Positions 1-24,736 of a stretch of 64,000 nucleotides of DNA are shown one piece after another (within the stretch, counting starts at the first letter, position 1; the number at the start of each line of letters is the position of its first letter). The notes under the pieces were generated by a model. That model ran no database searches and was not told the origin of the DNA. It worked only from the letters and a program-made list of their open reading frames with translations. Where the stretch lies: NCBI GenBank assembly GCA_000002435.2, contig CM018791.1, one strand, 5' to 3'. Origin of the DNA: Giardia intestinalis. Taxonomy: Eukaryota. The position numbers and the translations under genes were made by a program.

Positions 1-262
1 CGCCAATAGCATATGCAGGAATCTATCGCTGCCCTTTGGGATAGATTCTACACAAGCGTGCACCGGGGCATCGTTTCAACAGCTTCTTTACGCTAGCATA
101 TGGGCACAATCTGGGCTCCCCTTCCTTTCAAAGAAGAGTATTCAGGACTCTCGCCTCATTTTGCAGCAGAACAAAATCGATTACCGTACCACTAGCTCCT
201 TTCAGTTTTTCGAGAGACCTCAGACAATCCACCCTATTCATATTTCAACCGTGTTTCTTGAG

Positions 263-3200
263 ATGGAGGACTTAATTAAGCGCTTGATCGAGCTGCTACA
301 GATAACCAACAAATCAAATTGTGAAATCTTGGGCTTCTACAACTCCCCAGACTATAAAGATCTAAGCCCGGCAGAGCTATTTACATGGCTAGAAAAGAAC
401 GGTGAATTTGCACGTGTTGACAAGATAGACTATGTGCTCTTTGGAGATAGCAACGACATGACGAAGATAGGGATAAAGGTTGAGTCCGACACGAGTGAGG
501 AGAAGCTCGCTGAGATAAGAAAGGCGAAGCTAGCATATTACTCCAGGTTGCTGACGCGAGGAGAGCCTCTTCCTATCAAACCAGAGAACATAAAGCTCAT
601 AATAAGCGAATCCCCATACTTGCCCGATGTAACCATCGAGACTAGATTGCGATCACTGTTGCCCCTGGTATCTCTCACTTGCAAGCTGATTCTCTTAAGT
701 GACGACCTAAGCACTCAGATTGAAGATTGGTTCTCTCAATCTATCAATGCAATCTCCATCCAGGACATCAAGATTGCTATAATTCACGCTATAGATGTCG
801 CTCTTTCGTTTCTTGCGTCTGTCGGCGACGAAATTGCTATATCCTCCATTGCCCGTATGATCTTTGAAACGTTAAGCAAATACCGGCAACAATTCATCGT
901 CCTTTTCATCATAAAGGCTGCTCTGGATAATACGCAAGTAGGCTTTGGATATGATGTAACTGCGTACGACACGTTCCAGCCGTACAATAAGGGTGACATT
1001 TCCTTCGACGAATACCTGGGTATAGATAGTAGAGAGCCTCTAACCATATCTCTATACGTTAAAGACCTGCTCTCTAAGGCCCAGTATCAATTAACAGATG
1101 ATGTCATAGCAAGAAAAGCTGTGGACACCTTCATTGAGTATGCCAACAAGCTGCATTTTGCGATGAACACATACTGCATTAAAACCCGAATTGATAAACT
1201 AATTCAGCTTCAGCATCATGAGATTGCATTAAGTGTTTTGAGTACGCACGAGTCCATTCTCTTGGATTCCTTTTTATTACCTGTCTTTTGTGATTCCAGA
1301 AGTGACTTTTCTCTTCTTGCAGAGCCGGACTTTTTGTCCACCGAATTTTCTAAAACACCGGACGCCAGCTCATGCCTTCTTCCTCCCATGCGTCCAGTTG
1401 TGCATATAAGCAAGGTTAACGGTCGTTCTGGCATAGGAAAATTCATTACCACGGTTAACTGTGCTGGGTACTATAGCTATAAGTCAATTGTAGCTAAGTC
1501 TCTCATGCACGATTTACATTTACCCCCTCTGCGGATCCTGAAGATGACTCCTGCTATCCGCTCGCTGCGGAAACTGCGGTATCTCATGGTGGGTGGATCT
1601 GAGCGTATGCTTATGCAGTCGATGCACCATTATCAGGCGGATCTTCTCACATCCTTCACTTCCTACCACACTGACAGCCTGTTTGATCTAGAGTGGCTCA
1701 GCTCCTCGTCAATCATTTCCTATTATAACACAACCACGGGAACACTCTTTAGCAAGCCTATTTCTTGTTACAATGTATGTAAGCCTGAAATAGATGAATA
1801 TCTGGCTGATCTCGCCCGCGGGCCAATTGCTGCATGTCTTCACAATGCCTTAGAGCAGAAGAGTGACACGGCAGCACAGATAGAGTGGGCATCTGTTGTC
1901 GAAGCCCTGGGATTTGCACTAGCAGACTTGAGATCCATGGACAGTAGCTCTAGGGTGGAACACGTTCTTCAAAACAGACTCGAGGCGTTCTGGAATAATC
2001 TTGCAGATGTCGTGAGCTGCTCAAGCTTTTACAGGGACGCATATGAGCATAGTTCTGCGGCAAGATATGTCTTTCAAGTGTCTACTCCGGATACCTTTGA
2101 CGATCTATACACAACTGACAATACCATTTGCTTACACTCCCGTAACCTCAGGGATCTTCTTCGCATACGTAAGTTGCACCAGGGTGCTAAGCTTCGGCCC
2201 AAACAACTCGCTGTCCCCAATGCTGGTAATCTTTCGCCTTTCATCTCTGGATATATATTTCCATACAGTAACCCATTTATCACGCGACTCAAACACTTTC
2301 AATTCACCGTTATGCGTGGGCTTTATGAACAGCAGCTCTGGATGGAGCCAGCTGTGTCACATCTCTATAATATCAACGTTATAGTACAGCTTATCCTGCT
2401 CCAGTCGTGTGCGTTTCGAGAGCTATCTGCTCTCAATTTGTGTCTTAGCATTAATCACTCTGCCTCAGCATCCTTTGAATCAGAATCTTCGCTAGCTATT
2501 AGGATTGCTCCAGAAGGCTTGAAAAAGAGCGCGTGTAACATATTCTGTTATAAGCCGTTCATAGAGTTCCCTTCCCCTCCAGAGACCTTTGGTCAAGTAG
2601 TGAGTGACCTAATCATGGCCTTGAAATATGCATCTGTGTCCCGATTTAATGCTAACTTGAGCTTTAACCAGTTAGCTCTTCGGAAAACGTCGCGCCAGGG
2701 CCTGTGGACTCTATGCTCAGACATCTTCAACACGCAGACAGCCGCTATCAAAACAAATGCTCACGTTTGTAGCAGCCAACTTCTGAATCCTCTTCGCACG
2801 CACTTATCTGGGTATAGACTCTTGTTCTCCGCAATAGTAGAGGCTACCTTATACGAGTCCTACTACTCTCCAGTTTGCCGTCCTAAGCTTGCTCTCAAGG
2901 TCCCCGAATTAACCTCCAAGCATCAGGATCCTCTTCCCTTCATACTAATCCCTCTGCCGCAACGCATCATTGATGCCATATCGACGGTACTCGCATGCTG
3001 TGGATATACAGGATACGAATTTGTTGCGTTTAAGCTTCTGTATCCAACTGGAGTGTATGTTTACTATATCGACGGCATCCTGCAGCGTTCTCGATATGCT
3101 CAACGCTGGACCAAAACATACTCCATCCCGCAGAGCTCCAGTGACCAACTGTTATTCACAAAAGACACTGTTTCTTACTCTCTCCTAATAGATCCTGTGC

Positions 3201-6200
3201 AGCGCGTTCTTACTGAGCGAGAAGCGCTGGAATACATCCCGTTAGCCACACCGTTGTGCTTCCAATACTTACACCTTTTGTTCACTACTACAACAATTGC
3301 ATTCATCAACCATTGCCTATCCTTATCATTCGGTCTTTACACAACACAGTTTGCTAACCTCCTACAAACAGAGCTGCTGTGCTCAGCTCCAGACAGCCCC
3401 TACCGTAACGAACTTTCGTACTTTGTGCGAGGACTACCTCTCCGAATCACGATTCATGCCATCAGAAAGCTAATGCTCAATATTCAAGAGGGCGCCATCT
3501 ACCAACACAAGGATAGTCTCGAGACACTTGACAATCTGGGCAATCTTGTGGGCTCTCTTCGCCAACTTGTCATCGATCATAGAAAGTATAAGGTTCTTAC
3601 CTTTGATAAGAGCTACACGGACCTCATACTGGAACGTGCTATGCATCGTCTTTCACGGTTACACGACTTGCGGGCCGAACCCCTTACTATCTATACCGGT
3701 GATCCCCTTAAACTTGGTGAGCTGTATGCCGCTAGGACCTCTGATTCGTCATACCATCCAGCAATGCACTCCGCGGATGTAGACTCTCTTTGCGCGCTTT
3801 CCTCTAGTGACGAGGACGACGACGCACTAGACCCAGGGGTGGATGCTGAAGAGGCACTTACCAACTTGCGAAACAAGCTCGATCACCGGCTTGAGCATAC
3901 TGCACATTCGCAGATGCGTTATAACGCTGATCTTTGTAGGGCTGACCGACAATTGAGTGGAAGCGTCGATCAGACATGTGCCACGTCAACGAGTCCTGGG
4001 GCCGGTGATACGGTTTCCAGAGCAATGACAGTGGATAGGTTTTTGACCATTGGACAAATAACAAGCCTATTCGGCTTTTCAAATAGCATGCTGGAGGCGT
4101 CCATTCTGTTACCCTGCTTCAGTGACGCGCGCTCGCAGCATATCTTGGATGTTCTTGATGAGATGGACACTTTACTTTCGACAGTGCGTGGCTGCGTGAA
4201 CAGGAACCCAGACACTGGTGACATCAGCATTGAACAGACTATCTCCGTCTGCCCCGATTTTATGAATACATATTCTTCCCTAATCACATGTCCGACTAAA
4301 GAGATTGAAAAGTATGAGGATTCTCTTGGACAGCACCTTAGGACAATCAGTGCTCAATCTTCTCCTAAGGTTGATCAGTCAATGTATACGTTTTGTCAAT
4401 CAGAAATAGAGGCCATATCATCTTTTCACAACGAGGTCTATTCAGAAGGGGGATTGATAGGGCGGCTTGGGTCTGCCCCGCTTGAAGTTGATGCTCCGTA
4501 CTTTGCACCGTCATTTAGAGGCCTGACTTCCTTTGTCAAGGCAACGGAGTTGTTACTACTAGAGCACTTTGCCATTCTGGTAACTCCCACAACAACGGGC
4601 TACTCTGACCCAAGGGTACTTAACTTCCTCAACGTAAAACTGCCACTACATATGGCATACAGCGTCATCTTTGTATCTGTAGCGTCGAGATTCTTCTCTG
4701 CTTCGGAGGTTTTAAAGCTCCTTGCTACACCAGTGCTCGTCGTCATCCGTGATCTAACTTCAGAACCTGTCAAGAACAACTTACCAGCCTCCCTGCAGGA
4801 GCTGGCATCTCTTTTTGCTACTATTTCAACAGTTAAAGCTCCAGGCCGGCTAATTATCTGGGATCCGTCACTCATTGCGGCGGCTTCTGAGCCCGTCGTC
4901 TATGAGCTGTCTCCTGTGCTTCGCAGTGCTCTTGGAGCAGCTCAAATTCCCATATCTTCCCACTACATAGTGATGGCTTCTGACTTGTTTGAATGGTGTA
5001 TGCCACCACCTATTGTCTCTCTCCCGCAACCTATTGTGTGTCTTGCGAAGCTACTTTCTGGCTATATTTCAATGCCTAAAGTTTCACTAGACACGATAGG
5101 GTCCTTTATATCCCGCATCTCCTCTTGTACGTCTGGCGCAGACACTGAGCCGCGAGCTAGCTATCGCATGGCGGTCGGCCTTCTCTCGCTGCAGTGTCAT
5201 ACTAATCATAGACTAATGACCCTCTTGGAAGCGATATCATCTGTAATAGGAAAGTCCGAGCTGGGTCTGGGCTTTACTGGCAAGAATGCTCTAGAAGCCT
5301 TAAGAACCTTTCTGGGCATCGAGTTTTGGGGCACAAAGGTGCTGTTGGCAGTTGCTCCGAGGCTGCCTGCGTTCGTTTATCTTCTATCTCCAAATCCCTG
5401 TAGCAATGCAGTTCACAAATTGGCCAGTATATCCATTATTGGACCGGTCATTGACAATACAAGCACTCGAGACCTAGAACTTACTGGCCCGCACATTAAT
5501 TGCAGTGCCCCCATACTACTAGAAGTATTAACTTCAGTTTGTCTACCCTGCATCCATTGCCCGCGCTGGGTGGAGATGTTCTATGAACAGTTTTATGCAA
5601 CAGATTGTCGTGGCCTCGTACCCCTGAATACTAAAGGTTGGGGGATTCTCGCCTCCCTAGCTTACAGTATTCTAAACAGAGTGGACAACCTTATACACGG
5701 CCTATACTTGGGAATTACAGACTTCAAGCTAGACTTTAGTAGTACCTCATGTCTGTCTATCATTGAGAAGGTTTCTGCCCAGCCCGTTCTTACACACGGC
5801 TTCGATCTGATGACAGACACATACACCACCGAACTGCTTATTCTATCATTGGTGCGTATATTGACGGACTTCCAGCTCTCCAGCAACACCCTTTCCTTAA
5901 AAGCGCTTCTCAATAAGTCTGGGACTGGGCATGGTACTGCTTTGAACACTAAAGAAGAAATTTTCAAAATCTACAATGGATTAGATACCGTTTCAATCAT
6001 CAGTGCAATCCACGTGATACGAAACCTTAGCGAGCTGCATACTTTGTACAGCGGGGAGGTTATTCTGGACTCTCACTGCATCTACATATTAGTGATTCCC
6101 GAGCAGCACATCCCAGTCACCTCAGATCGCTACTATCACATCATGCGCATATTATCAGCCAAAAGAGAGAGCACCACCAAGCTGATTGTCCTTACAAACT

Positions 6201-9200
6201 GTCGCTCTATCTATGGTCGCTATGTAGAGCTGGGAATCACCACTGAGAGCCCGCTTGCTCAGGAGTTGGATGGGCCTTGTCTTCATGGCATGCTGAGCCA
6301 TGCGCATCTGCTCTACGAGTTTGCGAGCAACTTATCCTATAGCAATATAGTAGAGAGCTACAATGCTTCAACGGGCGCCTTTGCGGAGCTGGAGGCAGCA
6401 AACGTGTCTGCAACTATGTTCGAAGAGACACTCTCCAATTTCGTCTTCACTCTTGAGCAGCGTATCTTTGTGGTTAACTTGGCCGAGTGCCTCAAGATAT
6501 TGTTTGTTCCCATCCTATACATCCCCCTTGAAGCTTACAAACTAACCCCCACTCTGTCAACTCAAACTCTGTCTGGAATTTTGACGATCTACCTTTACTT
6601 GTTACAGCTCTACTCCGTGCTCACTGCAAGGCCAAAGCTAGGAGCACTACGAGCGTGCATCTACCCTCACTACAGCTTTGAGTGCAACATGGACTTTTTA
6701 ATGATCATTACATTGATAACAGATAGGTTTTCTACAGCTCTTGCGTACATAATCGCTATTCTCTTCTCTTTTGCCACCACAGCTGTCAAGCTCTTCTTGC
6801 TATGTTCTACTGATCATGTCTTCAACCGCGAGTTACTCCTGTCTAAATTAAACAATGACCCGGCAACTGCTCTAGCAAAGCATCACAGTAAGTGCCTTTG
6901 CGACATGATACAACTGGTTCTCCTTGAGAAGAAGGGCAAAACCCAATATGAATGTGCAATGAACAAAATTTCGTCTGAGTTCAATCAACCACTATTTGAA
7001 TGTACTCAGATACTAAATCATTATTTCAAAGGCATCATTGATTTGCTGAATTTGCCAGGAGATTCGCACGTATATCGAACGCCATATCTTTATCTACTTC
7101 CGCAGTTTCCAGACTTGTCCGCATCCATAGAGGCCACATGCAGTTCTTATGAATCCATTCTTGCTGTCCGCACAATTGTAGGCTCGTACAAGCACTCCAA
7201 GCCTGAAGCCCTCGATCCTCTGCGCCACGTTACGTTTGAATTAACTCCGCTACCTTATCCTAGTGACTTCTTGGCAGATATCACGGATGCCCAGGTTCCC
7301 ACGGGAGACCATGAGGCAGACTTGCTGGTTTATCGGGCTGTTATCTATCAGCACAAGGGCATCAGCAGAGAGGACTACAAAGGGTTTTCCCTTGCTTACT
7401 GCTTGGCTGCGTCCGCTTACTTCTGCAGGCCTTTTTGTCTCGCAGCTAGTCTCTTCGGAGTTCAGAACACGGTTGTGCTAAAGTATGCATACCCTCTCAT
7501 CAAGCAAGACTGCTCCACCATGGTTCACACTGAGTACGTGTCGCCGTCTTCGGTGACATCTAGTTCTTCTTTAGATATTCTCTCACTGCGTTCGTACTAT
7601 CGTGTTACTAAGTTATATTTGCGTGACGAGTCAGATATCCGCGTGTTTCTCTCTCGCCACCACACCTGGTTTTGTTTAACAGAGGACTCTAGTGAGAGGC
7701 TTGCTATAGCCTTTGTGCGAACGATTATCATTATAGAAGTGGAGTGTCCAGAAGTCCTAGCATCGGGCTTTCTGTCCTCTTTTGCATATCATCAACTAAT
7801 ACAAATGCCAGATTCACTTGGTCATGTAATGACATACAAAATGGTCAATGTTTGTCCCATAATTAACATTTGCTTGGCCATAGGGCAAACGAAAACTAAT
7901 GTTAACGCCTTGAACTTGCTTAGCCATTTGTATTGTCCGCATGCCATAGCAGATTGTTATTCTAGTCCCGAAGGGGATACCGGTACTGCAGCGCTTTTCA
8001 CCCCCACACAGCAAGTTCTGCTCTATGTCCTTCAAACAGAAATAGGGGCCTTGCTTGACCCTGCAGCCGTTGTGCATCTGTGTAAGCGCCTCGCATGTTT
8101 ATCAATACCCTACACTTCTCTCTTGCCTATCCTTTGGGCATTCTCCCAACTGTACTCTCTATATTTATATTCAAATGTATTAACTAGTCAGGGCACTCGC
8201 TCAATCAACTCGCCAGAGACTTCCACAAGGACCACAGAAGCAGTTGACAGCCTACTTGACTTCGTCTACTTTCAGCAATTTGGGCTTCAGATTGCATCCA
8301 GCAGCAACTGGTCGAATCCTCAGCAGTTAATAGAAACCATGGTGACCAACTTGATACCAGCTCTTTCCTCTATCTCAGTTGAGTCCTCATCTATTCTTGC
8401 GAGCTCATTGAGTAGTGAGCCTAGCATTTGTCCGGTTTTTTCTAAAAACTATCTATTACAAATTCTTTCTATTCATATCAATGCAGTCCATATGCGAAAT
8501 CTTTTTAATAGGATTATGTTCCATTATGCTGGAACTGTGGATAGACGCGACAAGGTATTGATGCGAATGCGACAGGCAACATCTTCAAGTTCAAACGATA
8601 ACCTACTTGCACCTTCTACCCGCAATAATTTACTGCCATCCTTTAGCTTGGATTCTATAGATACTTCTTTTAGAAGTCCATTGATCATCTTGGACAAGCT
8701 TTTGAAGGATGCCTTTCACAGACGCCTTCCATCCACGAAGCTAGAAAAACTATTCACCTTGCCGTATGTGAGCGGCATTCGGACGCCTATTTCCGTTGTC
8801 ATTTCATCGTACTTATCTTACGACGAATTTGTCTTCACCGTTTCACGCCTAACCTGCTCCGAAGTCAAGGTCCCAATGAGCTCAAAGCGGACGTCCATCA
8901 GCTCAGTGGTTGTTGACCTAGGAGGAATCTGTGGTGCCTATCCTTCTGCAGATATAGGTGCAAACCAGACCCTTGGCCAGCTTTCATCTAGAGAAAGAAT
9001 ACTGATGGGTATCCGGGCTGCCGTTGGAAGCATCCTCCGTCTATCTCCTTCTATCTACATGCCTACAAATGCGCGGAAGGACCGGACAGACACGTATCTT
9101 CTTCGAGCGTCTGTCTCATATTATGACGAGCAAAGAGAGAGTTGTATGGCTACAGCACCAGATAATATAAAGAAAGACGCTGGTAGGTATTTGTTTGGCA

Positions 9201-12200
9201 CATCTGCCGCTGCCGATGAGTACTCTGCCTCCATGTTTGAACTCTCGATCCCGTTTCCCGTGGGCAGGTTCATAAGCATACCATCCCCGTCCTCCACTAT
9301 ATGCTCGAACATCCATGATGTTCAGGCATCTCTATACACCTTTGCCACATATGCCGGGTTTCAACCGGCGATGCTGCCCGAGTACAACAGGGTAATAATT
9401 ATCGCTCCAATATCTCTACTTCTGGGAACCAGTACACTGGACGTGCTATCGTCTCTTGGTGAGATGTCGTCCTCAGAGAGTCTTTGGCAGCCATCGGAGC
9501 TGTCAGATGTTCTATCTGATTTTACAACCAATACCTCTGTCTCAATGCCAACACTGCCCCTCCTTAATAGTATTATTGCCACTAGACTGAGTATTTTCAT
9601 CTTTGATGATCTCAACATTATGGACTCTAAAGCGGTCCTCAGCCCTGAGCTCCAGCGTCTACGCGCACTTGCCACTATACTCAATCTGCAGGACTATTCA
9701 CACATATTGCCCACAAATCTTCAAGTGTTTACGGAGGCCTTTAACTTAGATTACTTCTATACTGAGGAAACATTTGGAGAGGAGCTCAATGACACTGACT
9801 CTAATGAAGCAGCATCGCCTGTGCTCGGTAATGATATCCACTTGCTGACTACTCCCTCAAAGGAGAAACCGGTGAGTTTTCTTCCCGGCGATCTGTTAAC
9901 GTTTACTGAGATAGCCACGAATAGCACAAATCCTTACATTATAACAATGAGGCTCCGGTGCTCCTATCTTCTTAAATACATGTGGAGGCTCTTCAGTTCA
10001 GAATACACTCTTCCCCAGAATATACTGTTGGCTGTGTTTGGCTCAGCTGGCAACGGGTATGCACTTTCTAACAAATCCATTCCATCCACCGCGATAACGG
10101 TTAAGTCTCAGTTGGAGAGCGTGCAGAAGTCACGCGTGCTATTGTCAGGCAATTCTACTCGGCTGCAATCCGGACTAAGTAACTTTAGTTCTGCCAGGGA
10201 TTTGTCAAACGAAGATTTTGGGTCAGCACAGCTTGATACCGAACTTCGGCAGCTCTCGAAGCGAACATTACTATATTGCAACCTAATATATAGAATCCTT
10301 GCGACTGGGGCCATAAAAGAGAACCCTGTCGTAACCTCTAAGCAGACTACTTTGCTCTCTGACAAATTTATCCGTGGAGCAAAGGAACCTGTACCACTAG
10401 CCACAGATCCTGACTCTGCTCAGGAGTCCTCATATCATCACTCAGAGTCGCAGTTCGACTCTCCTCGACACTTATCACTCGAGAAAGGTTTGGACTCAGA
10501 TACCACCAGTGATTCCGCCACTTCCACACTCATTAAAGTTATCCTCGAACTGTTGCCGCAAGCGACTGCTGAGTTCTCAGTTCTGAAGCACTATGTGTCG
10601 ATAGAACTAATGACTTCACTCGCTAATGCACTCAGCAATAGCATAGTGCTATACTATTCCAAGGAGCATCTGTCCATTCAAGATAGTGCTGTTACATTGG
10701 CCAATTTGCAGCACCACATCGGCACTCTCCAAAGTGCTGCAGCTTCCCATGCCAAGTGCGTAGAGGAGGTTGATAGCCTTATCCAGACACAAGAGGAATC
10801 TATTTCGACCTTACTAAAGCAAGAGGTGGAATATCAAACAACGGTGAATATGCTACTCTCAGAAAAGGAAGCTCTCGGTTTGACCCTTGACACCCAATTA
10901 GAGGATCTGTTCTTAAAGGTGGAACCTTGTCGCATAAAGATAGAAGAGGCCATCAGCTTTCTCTATCGCCTATTCCATGTCTCATTGGAAGCATCGCCTG
11001 ACCTCCTGCTCTCTGACATCTCCGTGGAGCTTTTAGTATCCTTGTTTGGCGTATCAAGAACCTTCCTCCAGGCATCAACACTGTCCATAGATACTGCGCT
11101 ATCTATTAAGTTAACAGAACTCGATATTAGCCACATTCTTAATACGCCTCTATCGCCTGCTGCACTGACCCTTCTAGAAGAAGAGCCGTCTCCCAAGTCT
11201 GCTCTGAGCGATTGTCTGTGCCGCCTTGGAAGTGCTATTGTTGAATACAAAGCTTTGCTAATGCCACATACGATGCTGACAAACAATTCTGCCTATGCTA
11301 ACTATCATAAGCTTGCCATTTTGCTTGCTCTAAAACGGGTGGATGAGGAGCTAGTAAAAGCTCAGCTACAAATAGCAGGGGTCAATTTGGAGAACTATCG
11401 AAAGGAGCGAGCCAATTTAGAAACCCAGAAGAAGCTACTTCTAGAGACAGATGACATCCGTGTGCCCCAAGAAGATATCCTTGCACTTATTTCCAGGCGT
11501 ACCGACGATGAGCTGCACTGCCGACGAATGCTACATTTGGCTGCTTTGTACGGAAGTCTGATCTCTGCATGCACGCTCTTTGGCTTCCATCACCTTGGTC
11601 TGTTCACTGCTATGTTGGATGCATCCTTTGGCAAGACCAAAGATGCACAGCTCTGTGTAGGCTGTCAGCTCGTTGATCATGGAGCTGCGTGTCATGCATG
11701 TCACAACTGTCGCTGCTTTTGTCGCTGTACACGCACCTATCAGCCCACTGGTGCATATGTAACAAACGCAGCGCAGACCCTTCCACTTCTCTGCACAGAC
11801 ATCACTAAAAAGGAGCACTTGTTAAATGTCGTAACTAAGGTCTTCGGAGAGGTGTGCCTCACTAAGTCATCGCTCCAGTATCGCCTTACCTTAGGTCACA
11901 CTGCTCTCTTGGAATACATAAGCTGCGTTGTCCTCTGTCAGCTTCCTTCGCGGGCCCCAATATACGTTTCTGGAAATATTCTGCATAGTGCAATTGCAGA
12001 GGCCGTCTCTGGCTCACCCGGATATACAGTAATATCCATGAAAAATGAGAACAAGCTGGTGGATGACACAGAAGAATTTTATACATCGTTTGTCAATACA
12101 TTGCAGGAAACTCTATCCGCTCATACTCACAGTGTGATCTTCTTGAAGGTGGAGACAATCAATTGGAAAGCTCTGGATTTGCTAGGTGCTTTAACATATG

Positions 12201-14767
12201 ATTTGAAATTGGTAGCAGGATATGGCAATATAGCCAATACTGTCGATCATAACTTCAACAAGTACAGGTTTGCTTCTCCTCTCTCTAGCTACCACTTCTT
12301 TGTAACATGGGGCCCTGAGGTCACAGAAGTGTTTAGGAGCGTCTCTACGCGGTTGAGCCTCCCTAACTTATTTCTCTTCTCACAGGCATCTTTTGCCGGA
12401 GGCAATTTACAGAGCCTGAGTACGTGCATTCTAGACTCAAAGACAGCTACGCGAACTCACTCGCTTGCTAGCTCTATGGCTGTGCACCGAGAGAATTTAT
12501 CAGCTATCATAGTTTCGTTTCTCTCCCAGTCTTACTTCACTGACCTGGTTGCGTTGAGGCTGGAACAAGAGAGCTTAATAAAGCAATCTAAGCTGGGAAT
12601 GAAGCAATTTACAACTATGCATCTCGCTTCCGATGAGAACACCGTGCTAACTATGCTCCCAACTATACATCAGCAGATCACTACACAGACGCAGTACATA
12701 CTGTCCATAAACTCTATTGAAAAGAAGCTGCTCGCACTCATAAAGCAACGAGATGCGTGGACACGTGGCTCTGACTCGATTGTTTCTACAGCTACCCAGA
12801 CATTACTTGCATTTTCAAACTACTTGGCAAGATTGAGTGTTCGGTATCCGGCCCTGAGCGCATTCTGGACAACGCTTAGCCCAGAGAATCTTCAGAAGAT
12901 CATTGACTCAATGGATGGTGTCATGAGAGATACAGTGTTTGCTGGATCGTTCTATAGGTTCATACTGTATGCATTATTGCCTCTCCTTGCTCGAGCACTG
13001 CCAGTTCAACAATACTATATTACTGTTCTTGCACTGATAGTAATAGGAGAGCTATCAGCGCGTACTGCCATCCCCTCTACTATTACTACTTGGGAAGCAA
13101 TTTTCAAAGCAACTGAATCGGAATTAGACGAGCTTGTGACAAAGGAGCTTAATGCATTGCTGCCTCAGGCCAAAACACATGCCCTGCACTCTAACATAAT
13201 TACCTGCCTCAGTATCCTCGCAGAAGAAAACACTGTGTCTACACGGTTAATAGATAACATTTCCTCACTCACCTCTACTATTCGCCCACAGTGCAGTCCA
13301 TCACAATCTGATTATGATTTTCTCAATTCAGAGCAACCTCATTTTATCAAGGGCGGGAATCCTATCTTGTTTTTTACAGAAGACCCCATAGTTACTTGTA
13401 ACGCGCTGGCAGGAAAGCTACTACAGGCCAGACGACCTATCACCATTACGGCGGCGTCATCTATAGCTACACAATCTAGGATGAAGCTAAACGATCTGTC
13501 GTGGATCCATACTCTAGCAGCTCTTGAGGAGCCATTCTATAGCGATGAGTTTCCGCGAGCAACAATGTTTAAGACCAGCCATGACGCTTCCCAAGCATCT
13601 TCACTATCTGCAGTGACCATTGTCATCTGCCAATCAATTGAGTTGGTGGAAGTAGTGTTGCGCTCAGCTCGAGGAATACCTGGTAGACTTGTCATTGTCT
13701 TGTGGACAGGCTATATGGACACAAGTCCATTGAAAGAGTCTATGGCACTTATAAAGTTGTTGGCGGCGTATCCGACTGTGGCATGTGTGCATAGCCGCGG
13801 TCATCTAAGCAGCTCTGCTAAGAGTATGACGTATAGGCCTCCCCTGGCATCTCTTACACGATCTCATCTCTATGGACAGCAATCTTTGCAGCAGATGTAC
13901 AAGCATCCTCCTACGGCATGGCTTAACCTGGCCTTGGATATTATCTTCCCTGCACTGAGCCCGGAGCTTACTTTGCCAATGACCCCTTACGTATACTTGC
14001 GGCTAGAGCGGCTGTCTCTACTCAGCAGCGTCGTCACCGAGGAGTATTGTCCACCAAACACTATTATTGAGAGTATGTTGTTTCTAGGAAATGGAGTAGC
14101 AAGCAAGTTTTCACCAGCCACCATAATTCAGTACAGACAGGTAGATCTGACGACATTGCTGGACGGATCCCTCTTTCAGAAGCTTATCGCCTATATTCTT
14201 CGACCTCTCTGTCTTACGGATAGTGCACAGCGCATCATAACCCTGTACCTGTTCTGTCTTTGGCTCTTCATTAAGCATCTCAAAAAGGATGATCCGGAGA
14301 CTCTAGCAGCAAAGGTGGCCTCATTTTCTCTCGGCGAGGTATGTGATACGCACCTGAATGGCGTGATGTGGCCTAAGGATCAATTTCTGGCTATCATTCA
14401 ATCTTTTGGTGTTATTCTAACATCAAAACCAGTTGAGTGGACCAAACACAATGACTCACTGGTGTGGCATCATGCGAATACCATTTCTGGCCATGCACCG
14501 CTTATGGGTCGCTCTAGAGAGCTTCCTAAGCCAAGCTTTTGGTACCCCACAACACCAGTATCCACCCCTGCTTACCCAATAACCTACAAGGTCGCAGCTT
14601 CCCCTGGCGGTGGGTTCCACTGCTATGCTGTACCTTTTTCCAGACCTCTTCAGACCAATACGCCACCCGAGGACCCTGAAGCCACAGGGGATCGCACAAG
14701 CGAAACGCACCATGATTTACTTCTGCAACCTGCTCCGACCGGGGCCATATCCTTGCTCAGAAGCTAA
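263..14767 (+). CDS. Giant hypothetical protein (~4835 aa from first ATG; the ORF is open from 161 but that start is a TTG). No recognisable catalytic domain. A Cys/His-rich cluster (CVGCQLVDHGAACHACHNCRCFCRC) lies near nt 11650-11740.
   Basis: Uninterrupted 14.6-kb ORF. First in-frame ATG at 263 (MEDLIKRL...). The amino-acid composition looks like a real protein (leucine-rich, probably helical repeats). The Cys/His cluster was read directly from the translation. No P-loop, kinase, BEACH or HECT motifs seen. Confidence 0.75.
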   Translation: MEDLIKRLIELLQITNKSNCEILGFYNSPDYKDLSPAELFTWLEKNGEFARVDKIDYVLFGDSNDMTKIGIKVESDTSEEKLAEIRKAKLAYYSRLLTRGEPLPIKPENIKLIISESPYLPDVTIETRLRSLLPLVSLTCKLILLSDDLSTQIEDWFSQSINAISIQDIKIAIIHAIDVALSFLASVGDEIAISSIARMIFETLSKYRQQFIVLFIIKAALDNTQVGFGYDVTAYDTFQPYNKGDISFDEYLGIDSREPLTISLYVKDLLSKAQYQLTDDVIARKAVDTFIEYANKLHFAMNTYCIKTRIDKLIQLQHHEIALSVLSTHESILLDSFLLPVFCDSRSDFSLLAEPDFLSTEFSKTPDASSCLLPPMRPVVHISKVNGRSGIGKFITTVNCAGYYSYKSIVAKSLMHDLHLPPLRILKMTPAIRSLRKLRYLMVGGSERMLMQSMHHYQADLLTSFTSYHTDSLFDLEWLSSSSIISYYNTTTGTLFSKPISCYNVCKPEIDEYLADLARGPIAACLHNALEQKSDTAAQIEWASVVEALGFALADLRSMDSSSRVEHVLQNRLEAFWNNLADVVSCSSFYRDAYEHSSAARYVFQVSTPDTFDDLYTTDNTICLHSRNLRDLLRIRKLHQGAKLRPKQLAVPNAGNLSPFISGYIFPYSNPFITRLKHFQFTVMRGLYEQQLWMEPAVSHLYNINVIVQLILLQSCAFRELSALNLCLSINHSASASFESESSLAIRIAPEGLKKSACNIFCYKPFIEFPSPPETFGQVVSDLIMALKYASVSRFNANLSFNQLALRKTSRQGLWTLCSDIFNTQTAAIKTNAHVCSSQLLNPLRTHLSGYRLLFSAIVEATLYESYYSPVCRPKLALKVPELTSKHQDPLPFILIPLPQRIIDAISTVLACCGYTGYEFVAFKLLYPTGVYVYYIDGILQRSRYAQRWTKTYSIPQSSSDQLLFTKDTVSYSLLIDPVQRVLTEREALEYIPLATPLCFQYLHLLFTTTTIAFINHCLSLSFGLYTTQFANLLQTELLCSAPDSPYRNELSYFVRGLPLRITIHAIRKLMLNIQEGAIYQHKDSLETLDNLGNLVGSLRQLVIDHRKYKVLTFDKSYTDLILERAMHRLSRLHDLRAEPLTIYTGDPLKLGELYAARTSDSSYHPAMHSADVDSLCALSSSDEDDDALDPGVDAEEALTNLRNKLDHRLEHTAHSQMRYNADLCRADRQLSGSVDQTCATSTSPGAGDTVSRAMTVDRFLTIGQITSLFGFSNSMLEASILLPCFSDARSQHILDVLDEMDTLLSTVRGCVNRNPDTGDISIEQTISVCPDFMNTYSSLITCPTKEIEKYEDSLGQHLRTISAQSSPKVDQSMYTFCQSEIEAISSFHNEVYSEGGLIGRLGSAPLEVDAPYFAPSFRGLTSFVKATELLLLEHFAILVTPTTTGYSDPRVLNFLNVKLPLHMAYSVIFVSVASRFFSASEVLKLLATPVLVVIRDLTSEPVKNNLPASLQELASLFATISTVKAPGRLIIWDPSLIAAASEPVVYELSPVLRSALGAAQIPISSHYIVMASDLFEWCMPPPIVSLPQPIVCLAKLLSGYISMPKVSLDTIGSFISRISSCTSGADTEPRASYRMAVGLLSLQCHTNHRLMTLLEAISSVIGKSELGLGFTGKNALEALRTFLGIEFWGTKVLLAVAPRLPAFVYLLSPNPCSNAVHKLASISIIGPVIDNTSTRDLELTGPHINCSAPILLEVLTSVCLPCIHCPRWVEMFYEQFYATDCRGLVPLNTKGWGILASLAYSILNRVDNLIHGLYLGITDFKLDFSSTSCLSIIEKVSAQPVLTHGFDLMTDTYTTELLILSLVRILTDFQLSSNTLSLKALLNKSGTGHGTALNTKEEIFKIYNGLDTVSIISAIHVIRNLSELHTLYSGEVILDSHCIYILVIPEQHIPVTSDRYYHIMRILSAKRESTTKLIVLTNCRSIYGRYVELGITTESPLAQELDGPCLHGMLSHAHLLYEFASNLSYSNIVESYNASTGAFAELEAANVSATMFEETLSNFVFTLEQRIFVVNLAECLKILFVPILYIPLEAYKLTPTLSTQTLSGILTIYLYLLQLYSVLTARPKLGALRACIYPHYSFECNMDFLMIITLITDRFSTALAYIIAILFSFATTAVKLFLLCSTDHVFNRELLLSKLNNDPATALAKHHSKCLCDMIQLVLLEKKGKTQYECAMNKISSEFNQPLFECTQILNHYFKGIIDLLNLPGDSHVYRTPYLYLLPQFPDLSASIEATCSSYESILAVRTIVGSYKHSKPEALDPLRHVTFELTPLPYPSDFLADITDAQVPTGDHEADLLVYRAVIYQHKGISREDYKGFSLAYCLAASAYFCRPFCLAASLFGVQNTVVLKYAYPLIKQDCSTMVHTEYVSPSSVTSSSSLDILSLRSYYRVTKLYLRDESDIRVFLSRHHTWFCLTEDSSERLAIAFVRTIIIIEVECPEVLASGFLSSFAYHQLIQMPDSLGHVMTYKMVNVCPIINICLAIGQTKTNVNALNLLSHLYCPHAIADCYSSPEGDTGTAALFTPTQQVLLYVLQTEIGALLDPAAVVHLCKRLACLSIPYTSLLPILWAFSQLYSLYLYSNVLTSQGTRSINSPETSTRTTEAVDSLLDFVYFQQFGLQIASSSNWSNPQQLIETMVTNLIPALSSISVESSSILASSLSSEPSICPVFSKNYLLQILSIHINAVHMRNLFNRIMFHYAGTVDRRDKVLMRMRQATSSSSNDNLLAPSTRNNLLPSFSLDSIDTSFRSPLIILDKLLKDAFHRRLPSTKLEKLFTLPYVSGIRTPISVVISSYLSYDEFVFTVSRLTCSEVKVPMSSKRTSISSVVVDLGGICGAYPSADIGANQTLGQLSSRERILMGIRAAVGSILRLSPSIYMPTNARKDRTDTYLLRASVSYYDEQRESCMATAPDNIKKDAGRYLFGTSAAADEYSASMFELSIPFPVGRFISIPSPSSTICSNIHDVQASLYTFATYAGFQPAMLPEYNRVIIIAPISLLLGTSTLDVLSSLGEMSSSESLWQPSELSDVLSDFTTNTSVSMPTLPLLNSIIATRLSIFIFDDLNIMDSKAVLSPELQRLRALATILNLQDYSHILPTNLQVFTEAFNLDYFYTEETFGEELNDTDSNEAASPVLGNDIHLLTTPSKEKPVSFLPGDLLTFTEIATNSTNPYIITMRLRCSYLLKYMWRLFSSEYTLPQNILLAVFGSAGNGYALSNKSIPSTAITVKSQLESVQKSRVLLSGNSTRLQSGLSNFSSARDLSNEDFGSAQLDTELRQLSKRTLLYCNLIYRILATGAIKENPVVTSKQTTLLSDKFIRGAKEPVPLATDPDSAQESSYHHSESQFDSPRHLSLEKGLDSDTTSDSATSTLIKVILELLPQATAEFSVLKHYVSIELMTSLANALSNSIVLYYSKEHLSIQDSAVTLANLQHHIGTLQSAAASHAKCVEEVDSLIQTQEESISTLLKQEVEYQTTVNMLLSEKEALGLTLDTQLEDLFLKVEPCRIKIEEAISFLYRLFHVSLEASPDLLLSDISVELLVSLFGVSRTFLQASTLSIDTALSIKLTELDISHILNTPLSPAALTLLEEEPSPKSALSDCLCRLGSAIVEYKALLMPHTMLTNNSAYANYHKLAILLALKRVDEELVKAQLQIAGVNLENYRKERANLETQKKLLLETDDIRVPQEDILALISRRTDDELHCRRMLHLAALYGSLISACTLFGFHHLGLFTAMLDASFGKTKDAQLCVGCQLVDHGAACHACHNCRCFCRCTRTYQPTGAYVTNAAQTLPLLCTDITKKEHLLNVVTKVFGEVCLTKSSLQYRLTLGHTALLEYISCVVLCQLPSRAPIYVSGNILHSAIAEAVSGSPGYTVISMKNENKLVDDTEEFYTSFVNTLQETLSAHTHSVIFLKVETINWKALDLLGALTYDLKLVAGYGNIANTVDHNFNKYRFASPLSSYHFFVTWGPEVTEVFRSVSTRLSLPNLFLFSQASFAGGNLQSLSTCILDSKTATRTHSLASSMAVHRENLSAIIVSFLSQSYFTDLVALRLEQESLIKQSKLGMKQFTTMHLASDENTVLTMLPTIHQQITTQTQYILSINSIEKKLLALIKQRDAWTRGSDSIVSTATQTLLAFSNYLARLSVRYPALSAFWTTLSPENLQKIIDSMDGVMRDTVFAGSFYRFILYALLPLLARALPVQQYYITVLALIVIGELSARTAIPSTITTWEAIFKATESELDELVTKELNALLPQAKTHALHSNIITCLSILAEENTVSTRLIDNISSLTSTIRPQCSPSQSDYDFLNSEQPHFIKGGNPILFFTEDPIVTCNALAGKLLQARRPITITAASSIATQSRMKLNDLSWIHTLAALEEPFYSDEFPRATMFKTSHDASQASSLSAVTIVICQSIELVEVVLRSARGIPGRLVIVLWTGYMDTSPLKESMALIKLLAAYPTVACVHSRGHLSSSAKSMTYRPPLASLTRSHLYGQQSLQQMYKHPPTAWLNLALDIIFPALSPELTLPMTPYVYLRLERLSLLSSVVTEEYCPPNTIIESMLFLGNGVASKFSPATIIQYRQVDLTTLLDGSLFQKLIAYILRPLCLTDSAQRIITLYLFCLWLFIKHLKKDDPETLAAKVASFSLGEVCDTHLNGVMWPKDQFLAIIQSFGVILTSKPVEWTKHNDSLVWHHANTISGHAPLMGRSRELPKPSFWYPTTPVSTPAYPITYKVAASPGGGFHCYAVPFSRPLQTNTPPEDPEATGDRTSETHHDLLLQPAPTGAISLLRS

Positions 14768-16015
14768 GTCATTAAGGGACCTATCGCTTTGAGTGTCCTC
14801 CCGTTGAATCTTAAGAATGTTTTCAAGATTTGGATCACTGTGGGAGTCCTCAATAGCCTCGGCCACATCTGCGTTTGTATCTTCAACCTTCGCCCCAGAG
14901 TCGCTTTTCTTTATGAGCCTTCCGTCTTCTTCTAATTCAAAGTTGAGAGCTTCGGCATATTTTCGCTGCTCGTCAAAATTCCACTTGTATCCGTTGACCT
15001 GGATGTCGCGCTCGCATAGTAGGAAGTATGTCGCAGTCATCTGGTTGTGTCTATTGTTATTCAAAGATCGTATGATTTTTGTCGCGCTCCAATCGGAAAT
15101 CTTTGTGACCATTGTGTAAATAATTCTAAAGTCTACCACTTTGCTCATCTTCAGCTCAGGGTTGGGCTCCTCAGGTCCTGTGTAACACTGGATATACCAC
15201 GGGTGCTTTGTGATCTCATCAAGCGTGATCCTCTTATCTGGATCTACGACCAAGATCTTCGAAATGAGGTCCGCGGCCTCTGGAGACACGTGATCAGGGA
15301 TATGAAAGACCCCGGAGATGATCTTTTTGTAGAGAGTCTCTGTGTTGTCGTGGTCGAAGGGAAGGTGCCCACAAATCATGGCAAATAGAATGATGCCAAT
15401 GGCCCAGACGTCGATACTCGGGCCGTGATATTTCTTTCCACTCAACATCTCTGGGGACGCGTAAGATGGAGAGCCACAAGCTGTTTTGAATTTCGCTTCG
15501 TCAGACATAAGGATGTTGGACAGACCGAAGTCGATCAGCTTGATGTTGTATGAAGAATCAAGGAGCACGTTTTCTAGTTTCATGTCCCTGTGGCACACCT
15601 TCCTAGAGTGGCAATAGGAAAGTGCAGAAACAATCTGATGGAAGTACTTGCAAGCCTCTTCCTCGGAGAGCTTTTGCTTTTGGACCACATAATTAAAGAG
15701 CTCTCCGTTGTCAACATATTCTGTCACCAGATAGATGTGACGAGGGGTATCGATGACTTCTAAAAGACGAACAATGTTCGAGTGATCTAGGAGCTTAAGG
15801 ACTTGGATCTCTCTCACAATGCGTTTGAAGTCATCTTCGCACTGAATTCGGCTTTTATCTAGCACTTTCAAAGCGACCCGTTCACCTGTAATTAGGTGTG
15901 TGGCGAGCCTTACGTCTCCAAAGGTTCCTACCCCGAGACTCTTTCCAGTGATGTAGTTAGACACGCGCTTCACGCGGACACGTACAGTAGAGGAGCCGGT
16001 CGTTGTTGATGACAT
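14717..16015 (-). CDS. Ser/Thr protein kinase of the CAMK-like (AMPK/MARK-related, CAMKL) family, with a UBA-like segment after the kinase domain.
   Basis: Glycine loop LGVGTFGDV, VALKVLDK, HRDMKLENVLLD, DFGLSN, GSPSYASPE. C-terminal ...NRHNQMTATYFLLCERD resembles the UBA motif of MARK/AMPK-related kinases. ATG at 16013-16015. Confidence 0.8.
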   Translation of the reverse strand: MSSTTTGSSTVRVRVKRVSNYITGKSLGVGTFGDVRLATHLITGERVALKVLDKSRIQCEDDFKRIVREIQVLKLLDHSNIVRLLEVIDTPRHIYLVTEYVDNGELFNYVVQKQKLSEEEACKYFHQIVSALSYCHSRKVCHRDMKLENVLLDSSYNIKLIDFGLSNILMSDEAKFKTACGSPSYASPEMLSGKKYHGPSIDVWAIGIILFAMICGHLPFDHDNTETLYKKIISGVFHIPDHVSPEAADLISKILVVDPDKRITLDEITKHPWYIQCYTGPEEPNPELKMSKVVDFRIIYTMVTKISDWSATKIIRSLNNNRHNQMTATYFLLCERDIQVNGYKWNFDEQRKYAEALNFELEEDGRLIKKSDSGAKVEDTNADVAEAIEDSHSDPNLENILKIQREDTQSDRSLNDLASEQGYGPGRSRLQK

Positions 16016-23473: not shown

Positions 23474-23581
23474 TGAAGCAGATTTTGTATTTTTGAGACG
23501 GTTCACCGGCTGCCAGCCCAGTAAATATTTGGTGCAGGCAGCAGCCGGCCGTTTACTGACCTCGGCCCTACGGGTGGACAG

Positions 23582-24736
23582 GTGCGGCATCGCTCGCTGC
23601 CACAGGGCCGGCAGGAGCGGCCTCTCCGCGGGCCGTCCGATCGATCGCCCGGGCGTCCAAAAACGGAATTCGTGGGCGGCGGTGGCAGTCGCGCGTCCAG
23701 CCCCCTGCACTTCGCCCTCAGGGAACTCCACGAGCGACTGGATAGCGTGCCTAATGAAAGCGTCGCAGGTGTAGTCTACTCCCTCAAGGGATATCCGAGC
23801 CTTGCCCTGAAGGAGATCCTCCTCGACGGCTTAGATAAGAACAGTGCAGATGCCATCAGACTAGAGCTGACCGCCCTTCTCGACCTCTCCCATCCGGGGG
23901 TCCTCAGGCACCACCAAGTAGTCGAGGACGAAGGTCTCATCTATGTCGTCATAGACCGGCACGACAAGACCCTCGAGCGCCTCCTCACCGAGCACAAACG
24001 AAGGAAGACTCTCATCCCTATCGCTGTGATCCTCTCCGTCCTGAGGCAGGTCGCTGCCGCCCTCGCCTATCTCTACGGCCTCAGTGGGATAGGTACTAGG
24101 GGGCTCGTCCACCGCGACCTCAGGCCTGCCAGCATCCTCGTCAGCGCAGACGGAGAGCGCTTCATCATCGCCGACTTCGGCCTCTGCAAGGACGCCCTGT
24201 GGAGTGGGAGCACTCTCATGGGAATAATGGCATACATGGCCCCCGAGGCGCTCCTTCACAACGAGGCCAGCCCCGCCTCCGACGTGTGGAGCCTCGGGGT
24301 CATCCTCTACGAGCTTACTACTCTAAGGAAACCGGACTTCCTAGAAGGTAAAGTCCCAGCAGAGGTCTTCGTCGATGGGTGGAGGCCGGACCTGAGCGAT
24401 GTCACTGATGGCTTCATGCAGAATGTTCTGGAGAGGATATTCGTGCTGGAGCCAGAGAGGAGGCCGACGGCCAGGGAGCTGCACGAGACGCTCGCTACAT
24501 TCGACATCCCAGTTAGTGAGCTGGGGGGTCAGTGCGTGATGCTGAGGTACAAGTGCGGCGCCTTGGAGACTACTCTGAACAGTGCTAACGCCAGGATTAC
24601 ACTTCTGGAGGAGGATGCCAAGACCAAGCTGGACAGGATTACTACTCTTGAGGCGGCCCTCGACGCCAGGTCTGCTGAGACTGCCTCTCTTAAGGGCACT
24701 CTCGAGGATCAGGGTAAAGGGCATCTGGCCACGTGA
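23582..24736 (+). pseudogene. NEK-like protein kinase domain plus short coiled coil. No in-frame ATG before kinase subdomain VIII and a degenerate glycine loop. Likely pseudogene, or a mis-assembled or frameshifted gene.
   Basis: HRDLRPASILV, ADFGLCKD, MAYMAPE and DVWSLGVILYEL motifs are present. The ORF is open from ~23525 but contains no ATG until LMGIMAYM. GC-rich third codon positions differ from neighbouring genes. Stop TGA at 24734-24736; the same frame then continues as plausible coiled-coil sequence (RLEAKVMQLSDRMERP...). Confidence 0.45.

What the first reader, a model, noticed from the sequence alone, without database searches (positions are those of the whole stretch)
263..14767. 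4,835-residue protein with no recognisable domain apart from a Cys/His-rich cluster
This is one of the largest ORFs one expects in such a genome, roughly 540 kDa. By eye it has no P-loop, kinase, BEACH, HECT or AAA signature. The only conspicuous motif is CVGCQLVDHGAACHACHNCRCFCRC at nt ~11654-11740, about 78% of the way along the protein. That could be a zinc-binding module, RING or UBR-like or novel. Giant proteins of this kind are often scaffold or E3-type factors and in diplomonads are essentially uncharacterised.
Basis: seen in the sequence. Interest (0 to 1): 0.5.

Follow-up and report, generated by a model that had tools for sequence, protein, structure and literature searches.

The report
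Giant Giardia orphan with dynein-like stalk
The flagged ORF is the last 70% of a 6,973-residue protein found only in Giardia; it matches nothing by sequence, but its one well-modelled part looks like the coiled-coil stalk of a dynein motor, followed by an eight-cysteine cluster conserved across the genus.

The parts
2..14767 (+). 3' part (4,921 codons plus stop) of the giant gene GL50803_30233. It encodes residues 2053-6973 of a 6,973-aa protein. The first 2,052 codons lie upstream of the window.
   Evidence: Frame 2 is open from base 2. It is 100% identical to P0003 residues 2053-6973. dN/dS A vs B is 0.09 overall and 0.04-0.26 per 400-codon block.
263..265 (+). It is actually internal Met-2140.
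   Evidence: orthologues continue 2,137-2,139 residues further upstream, and there is no in-frame stop.
10676..10924 (+). Outward arm of an antiparallel coiled coil (CC1, protein residues 5611-5693, 83 aa).
   Evidence: Heptad scan. The AF2 model shows one continuous helix with pLDDT up to 94. Length is conserved in G. muris: 83 vs 86 aa.
10925..11266 (+). Helical tip domain of the hairpin (residues 5694-5807), six short helices, flanked by Pro5694 and Pro5807. It is acidic and fast-evolving.
11267..11581 (+). Return arm of the coiled coil (CC2, residues 5808-5912, about 101 aa with one break at Pro5874).
   Evidence: AF2 helices at tile 217-271 and 276-313, pLDDT up to 93. Length is 101 vs 104 aa in G. 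muris, the same +3 change as CC1.
11585..11629 (+). Conserved helix at the base of the hairpin (FHHLGLFTAMLDASF). Together with the preceding GSLISAC motif it is the best-conserved stretch around the stalk.
   Evidence: A-B identity 0.93 and Gi-Gm identity 0.40. Invariant columns G304 to F329.
11654..11752 (+). Cys8 cluster C-x2-C-x8-C-x2-C-x2-C-x-C-x-C-x-C (nt 11654-11728) plus the conserved tail CTRT-x4-TG. Probable metal-binding knuckle.
   Evidence: All 8 Cys and the TRT..TG tail are conserved in assemblage B and G. muris, where the first spacer is 5 instead of 8 residues. It is the only Cys-dense window in the protein. Chance expectation is about 6e-5. AF2 pLDDT is about 30 here, so the fold is not known.
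11945..12394 (+). First alpha/beta (beta-alpha-beta) unit after the stalk (residues 6034-6183).
   Evidence: Secondary structure only, from the low-confidence 1,200-aa model: strands at tile 471-476, 508-513, 561-566 and 586-590, alternating with helices.
12500..12763 (+). Second, shorter helical hairpin (41 + 43 residues, residues 6219-6306). It sits where the dynein strut/buttress would be.
   Evidence: Secondary structure of the low-confidence model. Weak heptad signal at 6274-6301.
13385..13792 (+). Second alpha/beta unit (residues 6514-6649).
   Evidence: Secondary structure of the low-confidence model.
9587..9628 (+). Walker-B-like strand LSIFIFDDLNIMDS, about 350 residues before the stalk (a lead only).
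   Evidence: Partly conserved in G. muris as LSVIIFEDVSVADLS. The match to human dynein AAA4 FIMDESNVLDS has P 0.03-0.08 in G. intestinalis and no signal in G. muris. It is hhalign's top but non-significant local match.

Best explanation
GL50803_30233 is a Giardia-genus-specific giant cytoplasmic protein. Its C-terminal ~1,400 residues appear to be an extremely diverged, catalytically dead relative of the dynein heavy-chain motor. They comprise a ~12-15 nm antiparallel coiled-coil stalk with a small helical tip, then an alpha/beta module, a second shorter hairpin (strut-like) and another alpha/beta module. No nucleotide-binding P-loop survives. It therefore most likely works as a static or passively compliant structural arm rather than a motor. 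Inferred, not shown: a ring-like body held by the long, better-conserved N-terminal ~5,000 residues, a stalk that projects an acidic tip to dock on a partner, and a Cys8 cluster about 25 residues past the stalk base that binds metal (two Zn(Cys)4 sites, or an Fe-S cluster) and rigidifies the junction where a dynein would transmit stalk-registry changes. A role in Giardia's microtubule cytoskeleton (axonemes, ventral disc, median body) is a guess from the dynein analogy only. Shown: gene integrity, selection, genus restriction, Cys8 conservation, and the stalk-like fold of the hairpin model. Inferred: homology to dynein, the ring, metal binding, and cytoskeletal function.
For: Real, constrained gene. 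It is intact in many isolates and in G. muris, with dN/dS 0.09 along the whole in-window ORF. Peptides were detected once by LC-MS/MS (PMC8552679 supplementary files).

Internal consistency. The two arms are length-matched and change together between species (83 to 86 and 101 to 104 aa) at only 18-29% identity. Prolines flank the tip in G. intestinalis.

Beyond the stalk. The secondary-structure order is alpha/beta, a 41+43-aa hairpin, helical, alpha/beta. The low-confidence 1,200-aa model retrieves dynein motor domains as its top 7 Foldseek hits, with ~1,000-column alignments (5NUG E 8e-3, 3VKH and others). The next hit is the AAA+ protein Hsp104. About 1,070 residues follow the stalk, which is similar to canonical dyneins (my knowledge; human 3,500 to 4,646 confirmed).

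Cys8. All 8 Cys are conserved across the genus.
Against: There is no sequence-level support at all. No Pfam dynein model hits at E<=10. Three-species profiles against PDB sequences, which include more than 90 dynein chains, give only noise. hhalign against validated human DYNC1H1 does no better than against the reversed control, in four regions. The by-eye motif matches reach only P 0.03-0.08 in G. intestinalis and vanish in G. muris. The windowed scan shows no collinear diagonal.

No GxxxxGK[ST] occurs anywhere upstream of the stalk where AAA1-4 should be.

The tip is acidic and is among the fastest-evolving segments of the protein, unlike a tubulin-binding MTBD.

The stalk starts at residue ~5,611 against ~3,190 in human dynein, so ~2,400 extra residues are unaccounted for. 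The N-terminal half is better conserved than the putative motor, the reverse of real dyneins.

Confidence: 0.5

Rival explanations
1. It is a lineage-specific giant scaffold unrelated to dynein. The coiled-coil hairpin with a small helical tip arose independently (convergence), and the flanking alpha/beta units are ordinary Rossmann-like domains. The protein is a Giardia-invented structural or tethering factor whose main business lies in the better-conserved N-terminal ~3,300 residues.
Confidence: 0.38
2. One reading: a giant E3-ligase or scaffold-type factor whose Cys/His cluster is a RING-, UBR- or RZ-like zinc finger.
For: Eight conserved Cys make metal binding plausible. Giant E3s such as RNF213 place zinc modules at a similar relative position (~77-78% of the length; my knowledge, not tested).
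Against: No RING, UBR or other zinc-finger Pfam model hits at E<=10. The His residues are not conserved. The spacing lacks the two long loops of the RING cross-brace. No HECT, RBR, UBC or ubiquitin-related domain was found anywhere. True relative position is 85% of 6,973 aa, not 78%.
Confidence: 0.04
3. An SMC/Rad50/MukB-like coiled-coil protein, with the Cys cluster acting as a zinc hook.
Against: These hits rank below all dynein hits (E >= 0.037). The Cys cluster lies past the base of the hairpin, not at its apex. The apex carries a ~100-aa helical domain instead. No ABC-ATPase Walker A or signature motif is present and no Pfam SMC hit was found.
Confidence: 0.03
4. Not a real gene: a chance or degenerating long ORF, or several genes fused by mis-annotation.
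For: No annotated function, no literature, and very low spectral counts in the one proteomic detection.
Against: 14.8 kb of open frame in the window and 20.9 kb in full. dN/dS is 0.09 in every block. It is collinear with a 6,207-aa orthologue from residue 1 in G. muris. It is intact in dozens of assemblies. Peptides were detected.
Confidence: 0.01

Closest known systems
Dynein heavy chain (cytoplasmic and axonemal; stalk/MTBD structures 3WUQ, 5AYH, 8I3J, 3ERR; motor domains 5NUG, 3VKH)
   Different: There is no detectable sequence or profile similarity, and no Walker A P-loops. The tip is acidic (net -5 to -12) rather than roughly neutral or basic. About 2,400 extra residues precede the stalk. 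A Cys8 cluster is inserted after the stalk base. The N-terminal part is more conserved than the 'motor'. The family is restricted to Giardia.
DNHD1 (dynein heavy chain domain-containing protein 1; human, 4,753 aa; sperm flagellum; PMC9916431)
   Same: It is a giant, atypical dynein-heavy-chain-related protein with several coiled coils that is thought to act structurally in the axoneme rather than as a classical motor (PMC9916431; the rest is my knowledge).
   Different: DNHD1 is still recognisable as dynein-related by sequence (hence its name). The Giardia protein is not. No orthology is detectable, and no Cys8 cluster is known in DNHD1 (not tested here).
RNF213 / mysterin (giant E3 with a dynein-like six-AAA core and zinc modules)
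   Same: It is a protein of over 5,000 aa that combines a dynein-like AAA core with Cys-rich zinc-binding modules in the C-terminal quarter (my knowledge).
   Different: RNF213 has no coiled-coil stalk and keeps functional Walker motifs and a bona fide RING. None of these was found here.
Rad50 zinc hook and SMC/MukB coiled coils
   Same: Both have a long antiparallel coiled coil and Cys-mediated metal binding associated with it. They appear as lower-ranked structural hits.
   Different: The hook CxxC sits at the apex, and the heads are ABC ATPases. Here the apex is a helical domain, the Cys8 lies beyond the base, and there are no ABC motifs.

Membership tests
Dynein heavy chain | Significant match to dynein sequence models (Pfam DHC_N1/N2, AAA_6-9, MT, Dynein_heavy, Dynein_C) or to dynein sequences | tested here: not met
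   There are 0 Pfam families at E<=10 on all tiles and all three orthologues. Profiles against PDB sequences give no dynein hit. hhalign against validated human DYNC1H1 equals the reversed control.
Dynein heavy chain | Antiparallel coiled-coil stalk carrying a small all-helical domain at its tip | tested here: met
Dynein heavy chain | Two conserved prolines at the CC1-to-MTBD and MTBD-to-CC2 junctions (about 125 residues apart in human: 3287 and 3411) | tested here: inconclusive
   They are present in G. intestinalis A and B (P5694 and P5807, 113 apart). In G. muris prolines occur 5-8 residues away from the aligned positions.
Dynein heavy chain | Walker A P-loops (GxxxxGK[ST]) in AAA1-AAA4 upstream of the stalk | tested here: not met
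   A regex scan of the full proteins found only GRSGIGKF at residue 2526, about 3,100 residues before the stalk. It has F for S/T and is not conserved in G. muris.
Dynein heavy chain | Ring of six AAA+ modules, with a strut/buttress hairpin from AAA5 packing on the stalk | tested here: inconclusive
   The secondary-structure order after the stalk fits (alpha/beta, 41+43-aa hairpin, helical, alpha/beta). The pLDDT-34 model has dynein motors as its top 7 Foldseek hits over ~1,000 columns, but at E 8e-3 to 7e-2.
Dynein heavy chain | Tip domain suited to bind the acidic tubulin surface and conserved accordingly | tested here: not met
   Net charge is -7, -12 and -5, with 2-7 Lys+Arg, against +3 and 16 Lys+Arg in the human MTBD. 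The tip is among the least conserved segments. Binding itself is not testable here.
   The spacing is C-x2-C-x5/8-C-x2-C-x2-C-x-C-x-C-x-C, and the His are not conserved. There is no Pfam hit.
Metal-binding Cys cluster (generic) | An invariant set of at least 4 Cys in CxxC/CxC pairs across orthologues | tested here: met
   All 8 Cys are invariant in assemblages A and B and in G. muris, at about 30% local identity. The metal identity and the fold are not testable with these tools (AF2 pLDDT about 30).
Rad50/SMC | CxxC hook or hinge at the coiled-coil apex, and ABC-ATPase head motifs at both ends | tested here: not met
   The apex is a ~100-aa helical domain without Cys pairs. The Cys8 lies after the base. 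No Walker A or ABC signature is present. Structural hits rank below dyneins.

The most novel reading that the evidence does not exclude
Giardia carries a 'fossil dynein'. This would be a heavy-chain paralogue that lost all nucleotide sites and all recognisable sequence, doubled in size, and was re-used as an ATP-independent structural arm of a Giardia-specific microtubule organelle (for example the unidentified side-arms or crossbridges of the ventral disc, or the cytoplasmic axoneme attachments). Its acidic stalk tip would bind a lineage-specific partner instead of tubulin. Its Cys8 (Zn or Fe-S) knuckle at the stalk base would act as a redox- or metal-sensitive lock on stalk conformation.
Probability: 0.12. 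Interest if true: 0.75.

Novelty: new variant of a known kind. Interest (0 to 1): 0.5.

Why it matters
At 6,973 residues this is a very large protein for Giardia, an important human parasite, yet it has no annotation and none of its identifiers appears in the literature library searched. If its C-terminal third really is a dynein-derived module without ATP sites, it would show how far a motor can diverge while keeping its stalk architecture. It would add a pseudo-motor to the small set of dynein-related structural proteins, such as DNHD1. It would also nominate a candidate for one of the many unassigned densities on Giardia's microtubule organelles, which are essential for attachment and are parasite-specific. 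The genus-wide Cys8 cluster is a directly testable handle, through metal analysis and Cys-to-Ser alleles. If the resemblance is convergent, the protein is still a constrained, genus-restricted giant with no known fold for more than 5,000 residues, and a good target for structure prediction at scale.

Tried and rejected
- Pfam on the whole protein, on 1,000-aa tiles, on the off-window N-terminus and on all orthologues gave nothing.
- PDB sequence search with the single protein and with the profiles A1, A4 and A6 gave only noise.
- The large k-mer-prefiltered homologue search found only G. intestinalis clusters and missed G. muris. A three-sequence, 4,800-column query timed out. A two-sequence query returned nothing, not even self-hits, so it is a failed positive control and is disregarded.
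- The last large search, with a recalled dynein AAA1 bait, confirmed the bait but returned only fragments of 390 aa or less, useless for building a dynein stalk-to-C-terminus profile.
- I therefore validated my recall of human DYNC1H1 residues 1884-3174 and 3175-4646 against the PDB and used those sequences as the dynein reference.
- All dynein sequence tests were negative or did not replicate: hhalign, Smith-Waterman with shuffles on by-eye motifs, a windowed diagonal scan, and a semi-global alignment (uninformative). I rejected my own by-eye matches (KVEP...SPD...VELLVSLFG, GSLISAC, IFIFDDLNIMDS, FDEFVFTVSRL) as evidence.
- The metagenome scan for further lineages found nothing.
- The first AF2 run of 1,200 aa with 2 sequences gave pLDDT 34. 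I used only its secondary structure and, cautiously, a Foldseek search of it.
- AF2 gave no usable geometry for the Cys cluster (pLDDT about 30).
- Membrane protein was rejected: only one or two hydrophobic 19-mers and no signal peptide.
- Internal repeats: none.
- Literature searches under five identifiers found no paper. The ventral-disc proteome supplements do not list the gene.
Full report
**1. The observation**

The window has a very long + strand ORF that ends at the TAA at 14765-14767. Frame 2 contains no stop from base 2 onward, so the ORF is cut by the left edge of the window.

The only relatives found by the first large search are 6,971 and 6,949 aa long. The window's Met-263 aligns to their residue ~2,138. 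Cluster look-up names the protein: Giardia intestinalis WB GL50803_30233 (XP_001706934.1, A8BHW4), a 'hypothetical protein' of 6,973 aa. The 4,921 in-window residues are 100% identical to its residues 2053-6973. So the '4,835-residue protein' is the C-terminal 70% of a 6,973-residue protein, and ATG263 encodes internal Met-2140.

It has 8 Cys and 3 His in 25 residues and is the only Cys-dense window in the protein. Its chance expectation is about 6e-5.

**2. Is it a real, single gene?**

Yes.
- Full-length ORFs of 6,971/6,973 aa (assemblage A) and 6,949 aa (assemblage B, 74% identity) recur in more than 25 independent assemblies.
- The same kinase gene lies downstream in the assemblage B and assemblage A contigs, as it does in the window.
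- Nei-Gojobori dN/dS between A and B over the in-window part is 0.09 (0.04-0.26 per 400-codon block; dS is near saturation).
- An exhaustive HMMER scan of 1.84 billion representative proteins with the C-terminal 1,200 aa (A+B profile) found exactly one further relative, E = 4e-67. It is Giardia muris GMRT_10929, 6,207 aa, also 'hypothetical'.
- That orthologue is collinear from residue 1, with 31% identity over ~6,100 aligned positions.
- No other diplomonad, and no known family, reached E <= 1e-3 in that scan.
- A metagenome scan found nothing more.
- Peptides of GL50803_30233 were seen once: an anti-actin immunoprecipitation in G-buffer, one of three replicates, 3 counts (PMC8552679 supplementary files 1 and 3). 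I take this only as evidence that the protein is made.
- No paper in the library mentions the gene under any identifier.

**3. Sequence-level annotation**

Nothing was found.
- Pfam gave 0 families for the whole in-window protein at E<=1.
- Pfam also gave 0 families for six overlapping 1,000-aa tiles and the off-window N-terminal 2,200 aa at E<=10.
- Scanning every member of the two half-length alignments at E<=1 gave only single-member noise hits at E 0.04-0.1: Rgr-1_C, CLN6 and Mga.
- phmmer and three-species profile searches against all PDB sequences returned only noise.
- There are no internal repeats and no membrane-protein pattern. The composition is Leu/Ser-rich.

**4. The Cys cluster**

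The pattern is C-x2-C-x8-C-x2-C-x2-C-x-C-x-C-x-C in G. intestinalis and the same with x5 in G. muris. It is followed by an invariant CTRT-x4-TG. All eight Cys are invariant. The three His are not: the first is Tyr in assemblage B, and none of the three positions is His in G. muris. MAFFT misplaces one gap, so the equivalence of the first CxxC is by inspection.

It is therefore a Cys8 module, not a Cys/His one. Eight invariant Cys at about 30% local identity argues strongly for a functional, most likely metal-binding, site. That could be two Zn(Cys)4 centres. Alternatively, given the CxxCxxC core, it could be an Fe-S cluster. This is an inference and cannot be resolved here. The spacing does not fit the RING cross-brace, and no zinc-finger model matches.

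**5. The hairpin**

A heptad scan showed two coiled-coil stretches flanking a ~110-residue non-coil segment just upstream of the cluster.

The first AlphaFold job (last-but-184 1,200 aa, 2 sequences) had pLDDT 34 and is useful for secondary structure only. In order, it showed:
- a 74-residue helix;
- a small helical bundle;
- long return helices;
- a beta-alpha-beta unit;
- a 41+43-residue helical hairpin;
- a helical region;
- a second alpha/beta unit.

The second job (residues 5600-6040, 3 sequences including G. muris) gave pLDDT 70-94 over the coil-tip-coil.

Foldseek of this model against 350,542 PDB chains returned dynein heavy-chain stalks or microtubule-binding domains at ranks 1-22. 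These include 3WUQ (E 4e-4, TM 0.56), 8I3J (TM 0.59), 5AYH, 3ERR, and axonemal dyneins from cow, human, Chlamydomonas, Leishmania and Trypanosoma. Generic hairpins (MukB, Smc, Rad50, chemoreceptors) follow from E 0.037.

The two arms are length-matched and change in parallel between species (83 to 86 and 101 to 104 residues) at 18-29% identity, while the tip shrinks from 114 to 91. Prolines flank the tip in G. intestinalis (113 residues apart, against 125 in human dynein). They are shifted by 5-8 residues in G. muris.

Foldseek with the low-confidence 1,200-aa model gave dynein motor domains as the top seven hits (5NUG, 3VKH, 9YNC, 9E0U, 9BM0, 9BM1, 8PQW). Alignments span ~1,000 columns at E 8e-3 to 7e-2, and Hsp104 comes next. 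This result is not independent of the stalk and comes from a poor model, so I count it as suggestive only.

**6. Trying to break the dynein idea**

I had formed the idea by eye, so I tested it with controls. I recalled human DYNC1H1 residues 1884-3174 and 3175-4646 from memory and validated both against solved structures (3,006 and 3,325 bits, full length, 5NUG and others).

Against these:
- hhalign of the Giardia profile gives probability <1% and does no better than against the reversed sequence, in the stalk, pre-stalk and post-stalk regions.
- Smith-Waterman with shuffles gives P 0.03 for the CC1/tip junction and 0.03-0.08 for a Walker-B-like strand in G. intestinalis. Neither replicates in G. 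muris.
- A windowed scan shows no collinear diagonal.
- No GxxxxGK[ST] exists upstream of the stalk.
- The tip is acidic (net -7, -12 and -5, against +3) and is among the least conserved segments.
- The stalk begins ~2,400 residues later than in canonical dyneins.
- The N-terminal half is better conserved than the putative motor.

So the dynein relationship is supported by predicted structure only. Several defining sequence and chemistry features are not met.

**7. Verdict**

Its Cys cluster is a conserved Cys8 site, which is plausibly metal-binding but is not RING- or UBR-like.

The most likely reading (about 0.5) is a highly diverged, ATPase-dead dynein-heavy-chain-like structural protein with the Cys8 knuckle inserted just beyond the stalk base. 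The main rival (about 0.38) is an unrelated Giardia-specific scaffold whose hairpin is convergent. It works like a stalk-bearing arm, but membership of the dynein family is not established. What the N-terminal ~5,000 residues do remains unknown.

I rate it 'new variant of a known kind', with moderate interest.

Noticed in passing
window 14717-14767: The 3' end of the giant ORF overlaps, tail to tail, by 51 nt with a convergent 432-aa protein kinase ORF (14717-16015, minus strand; Pkinase E 7e-80). The same neighbour and a similar overlap are present in the assemblage B and assemblage A contigs (L001, L002).
   Followed up: partly
window 1-262: The ORF lister reported this ORF as starting at a TTG at 161, although the frame is open to base 2. 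Any reader relying on 'first ATG' or on that list would mis-size the protein. The true start lies about 6.2 kb upstream of the window.
   Followed up: yes
P0003 residues 1-3300 (window 2-3745 holds the last part): The N-terminal half is the best-conserved part between G. intestinalis and G. muris (many 100-aa blocks at 35-48% identity, against 10-38% in the stalk and post-stalk part). This is the reverse of canonical dyneins. Its fold and function are completely unknown.
   Followed up: partly
window 4574-4606, 4844-4870, 8906-8947, 9587-9628: By-eye strand-plus-loop motifs resemble degenerate Walker A sites with Tyr in the Lys position (ILVTPTTTGYS, VVVDLGGICGAYPS) and Walker B sites (GRLIIWDPS, LSIFIFDDLNIMDS). 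They are partly conserved in G. muris. Only the last was tested statistically, and it did not hold up. They may be pareidolia.
   Followed up: partly
PMC8552679 supplementary files 1 and 3: GL50803_30233 was detected in an anti-Giardia-actin immunoprecipitation (G-buffer condition, 1 of 3 replicates, 3 counts). Monomeric actin is a subunit of inner-arm dyneins, which is an intriguing coincidence. The evidence is far too thin to infer an interaction.
   Followed up: partly
window 10925-11266: The tip of the hairpin is among the fastest-evolving segments of the protein (A-B identity 0.54; Gi-Gm 0.20; 23 residues shorter in G. muris) and is strongly acidic in all three sequences. That would be odd for a tubulin-binding surface.
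   Followed up: yes
window 17711-23731 (minus strand), 35490-40745 (plus strand), 24001-26000: Other large ORFs are in the window. One is a 2,006-aa ORF with only a weak coiled-coil DUF7491 hit. Another is a 1,751-aa ORF whose last 140 residues are a SpoU-type RNA methylase (E 9e-29) behind 1,600 unannotated residues. There is also a locally GC-rich stretch (56.5% GC against about 46-48% elsewhere).
   Followed up: no
tool behaviour: The k-mer-prefiltered homologue search missed the 31%-identical G. muris orthologue with a 4,834-aa query. It also returned no self-hits with a two-sequence alignment. Absence of hits from that tool should not be read as absence of relatives at about 30% identity or less.
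   Followed up: yes
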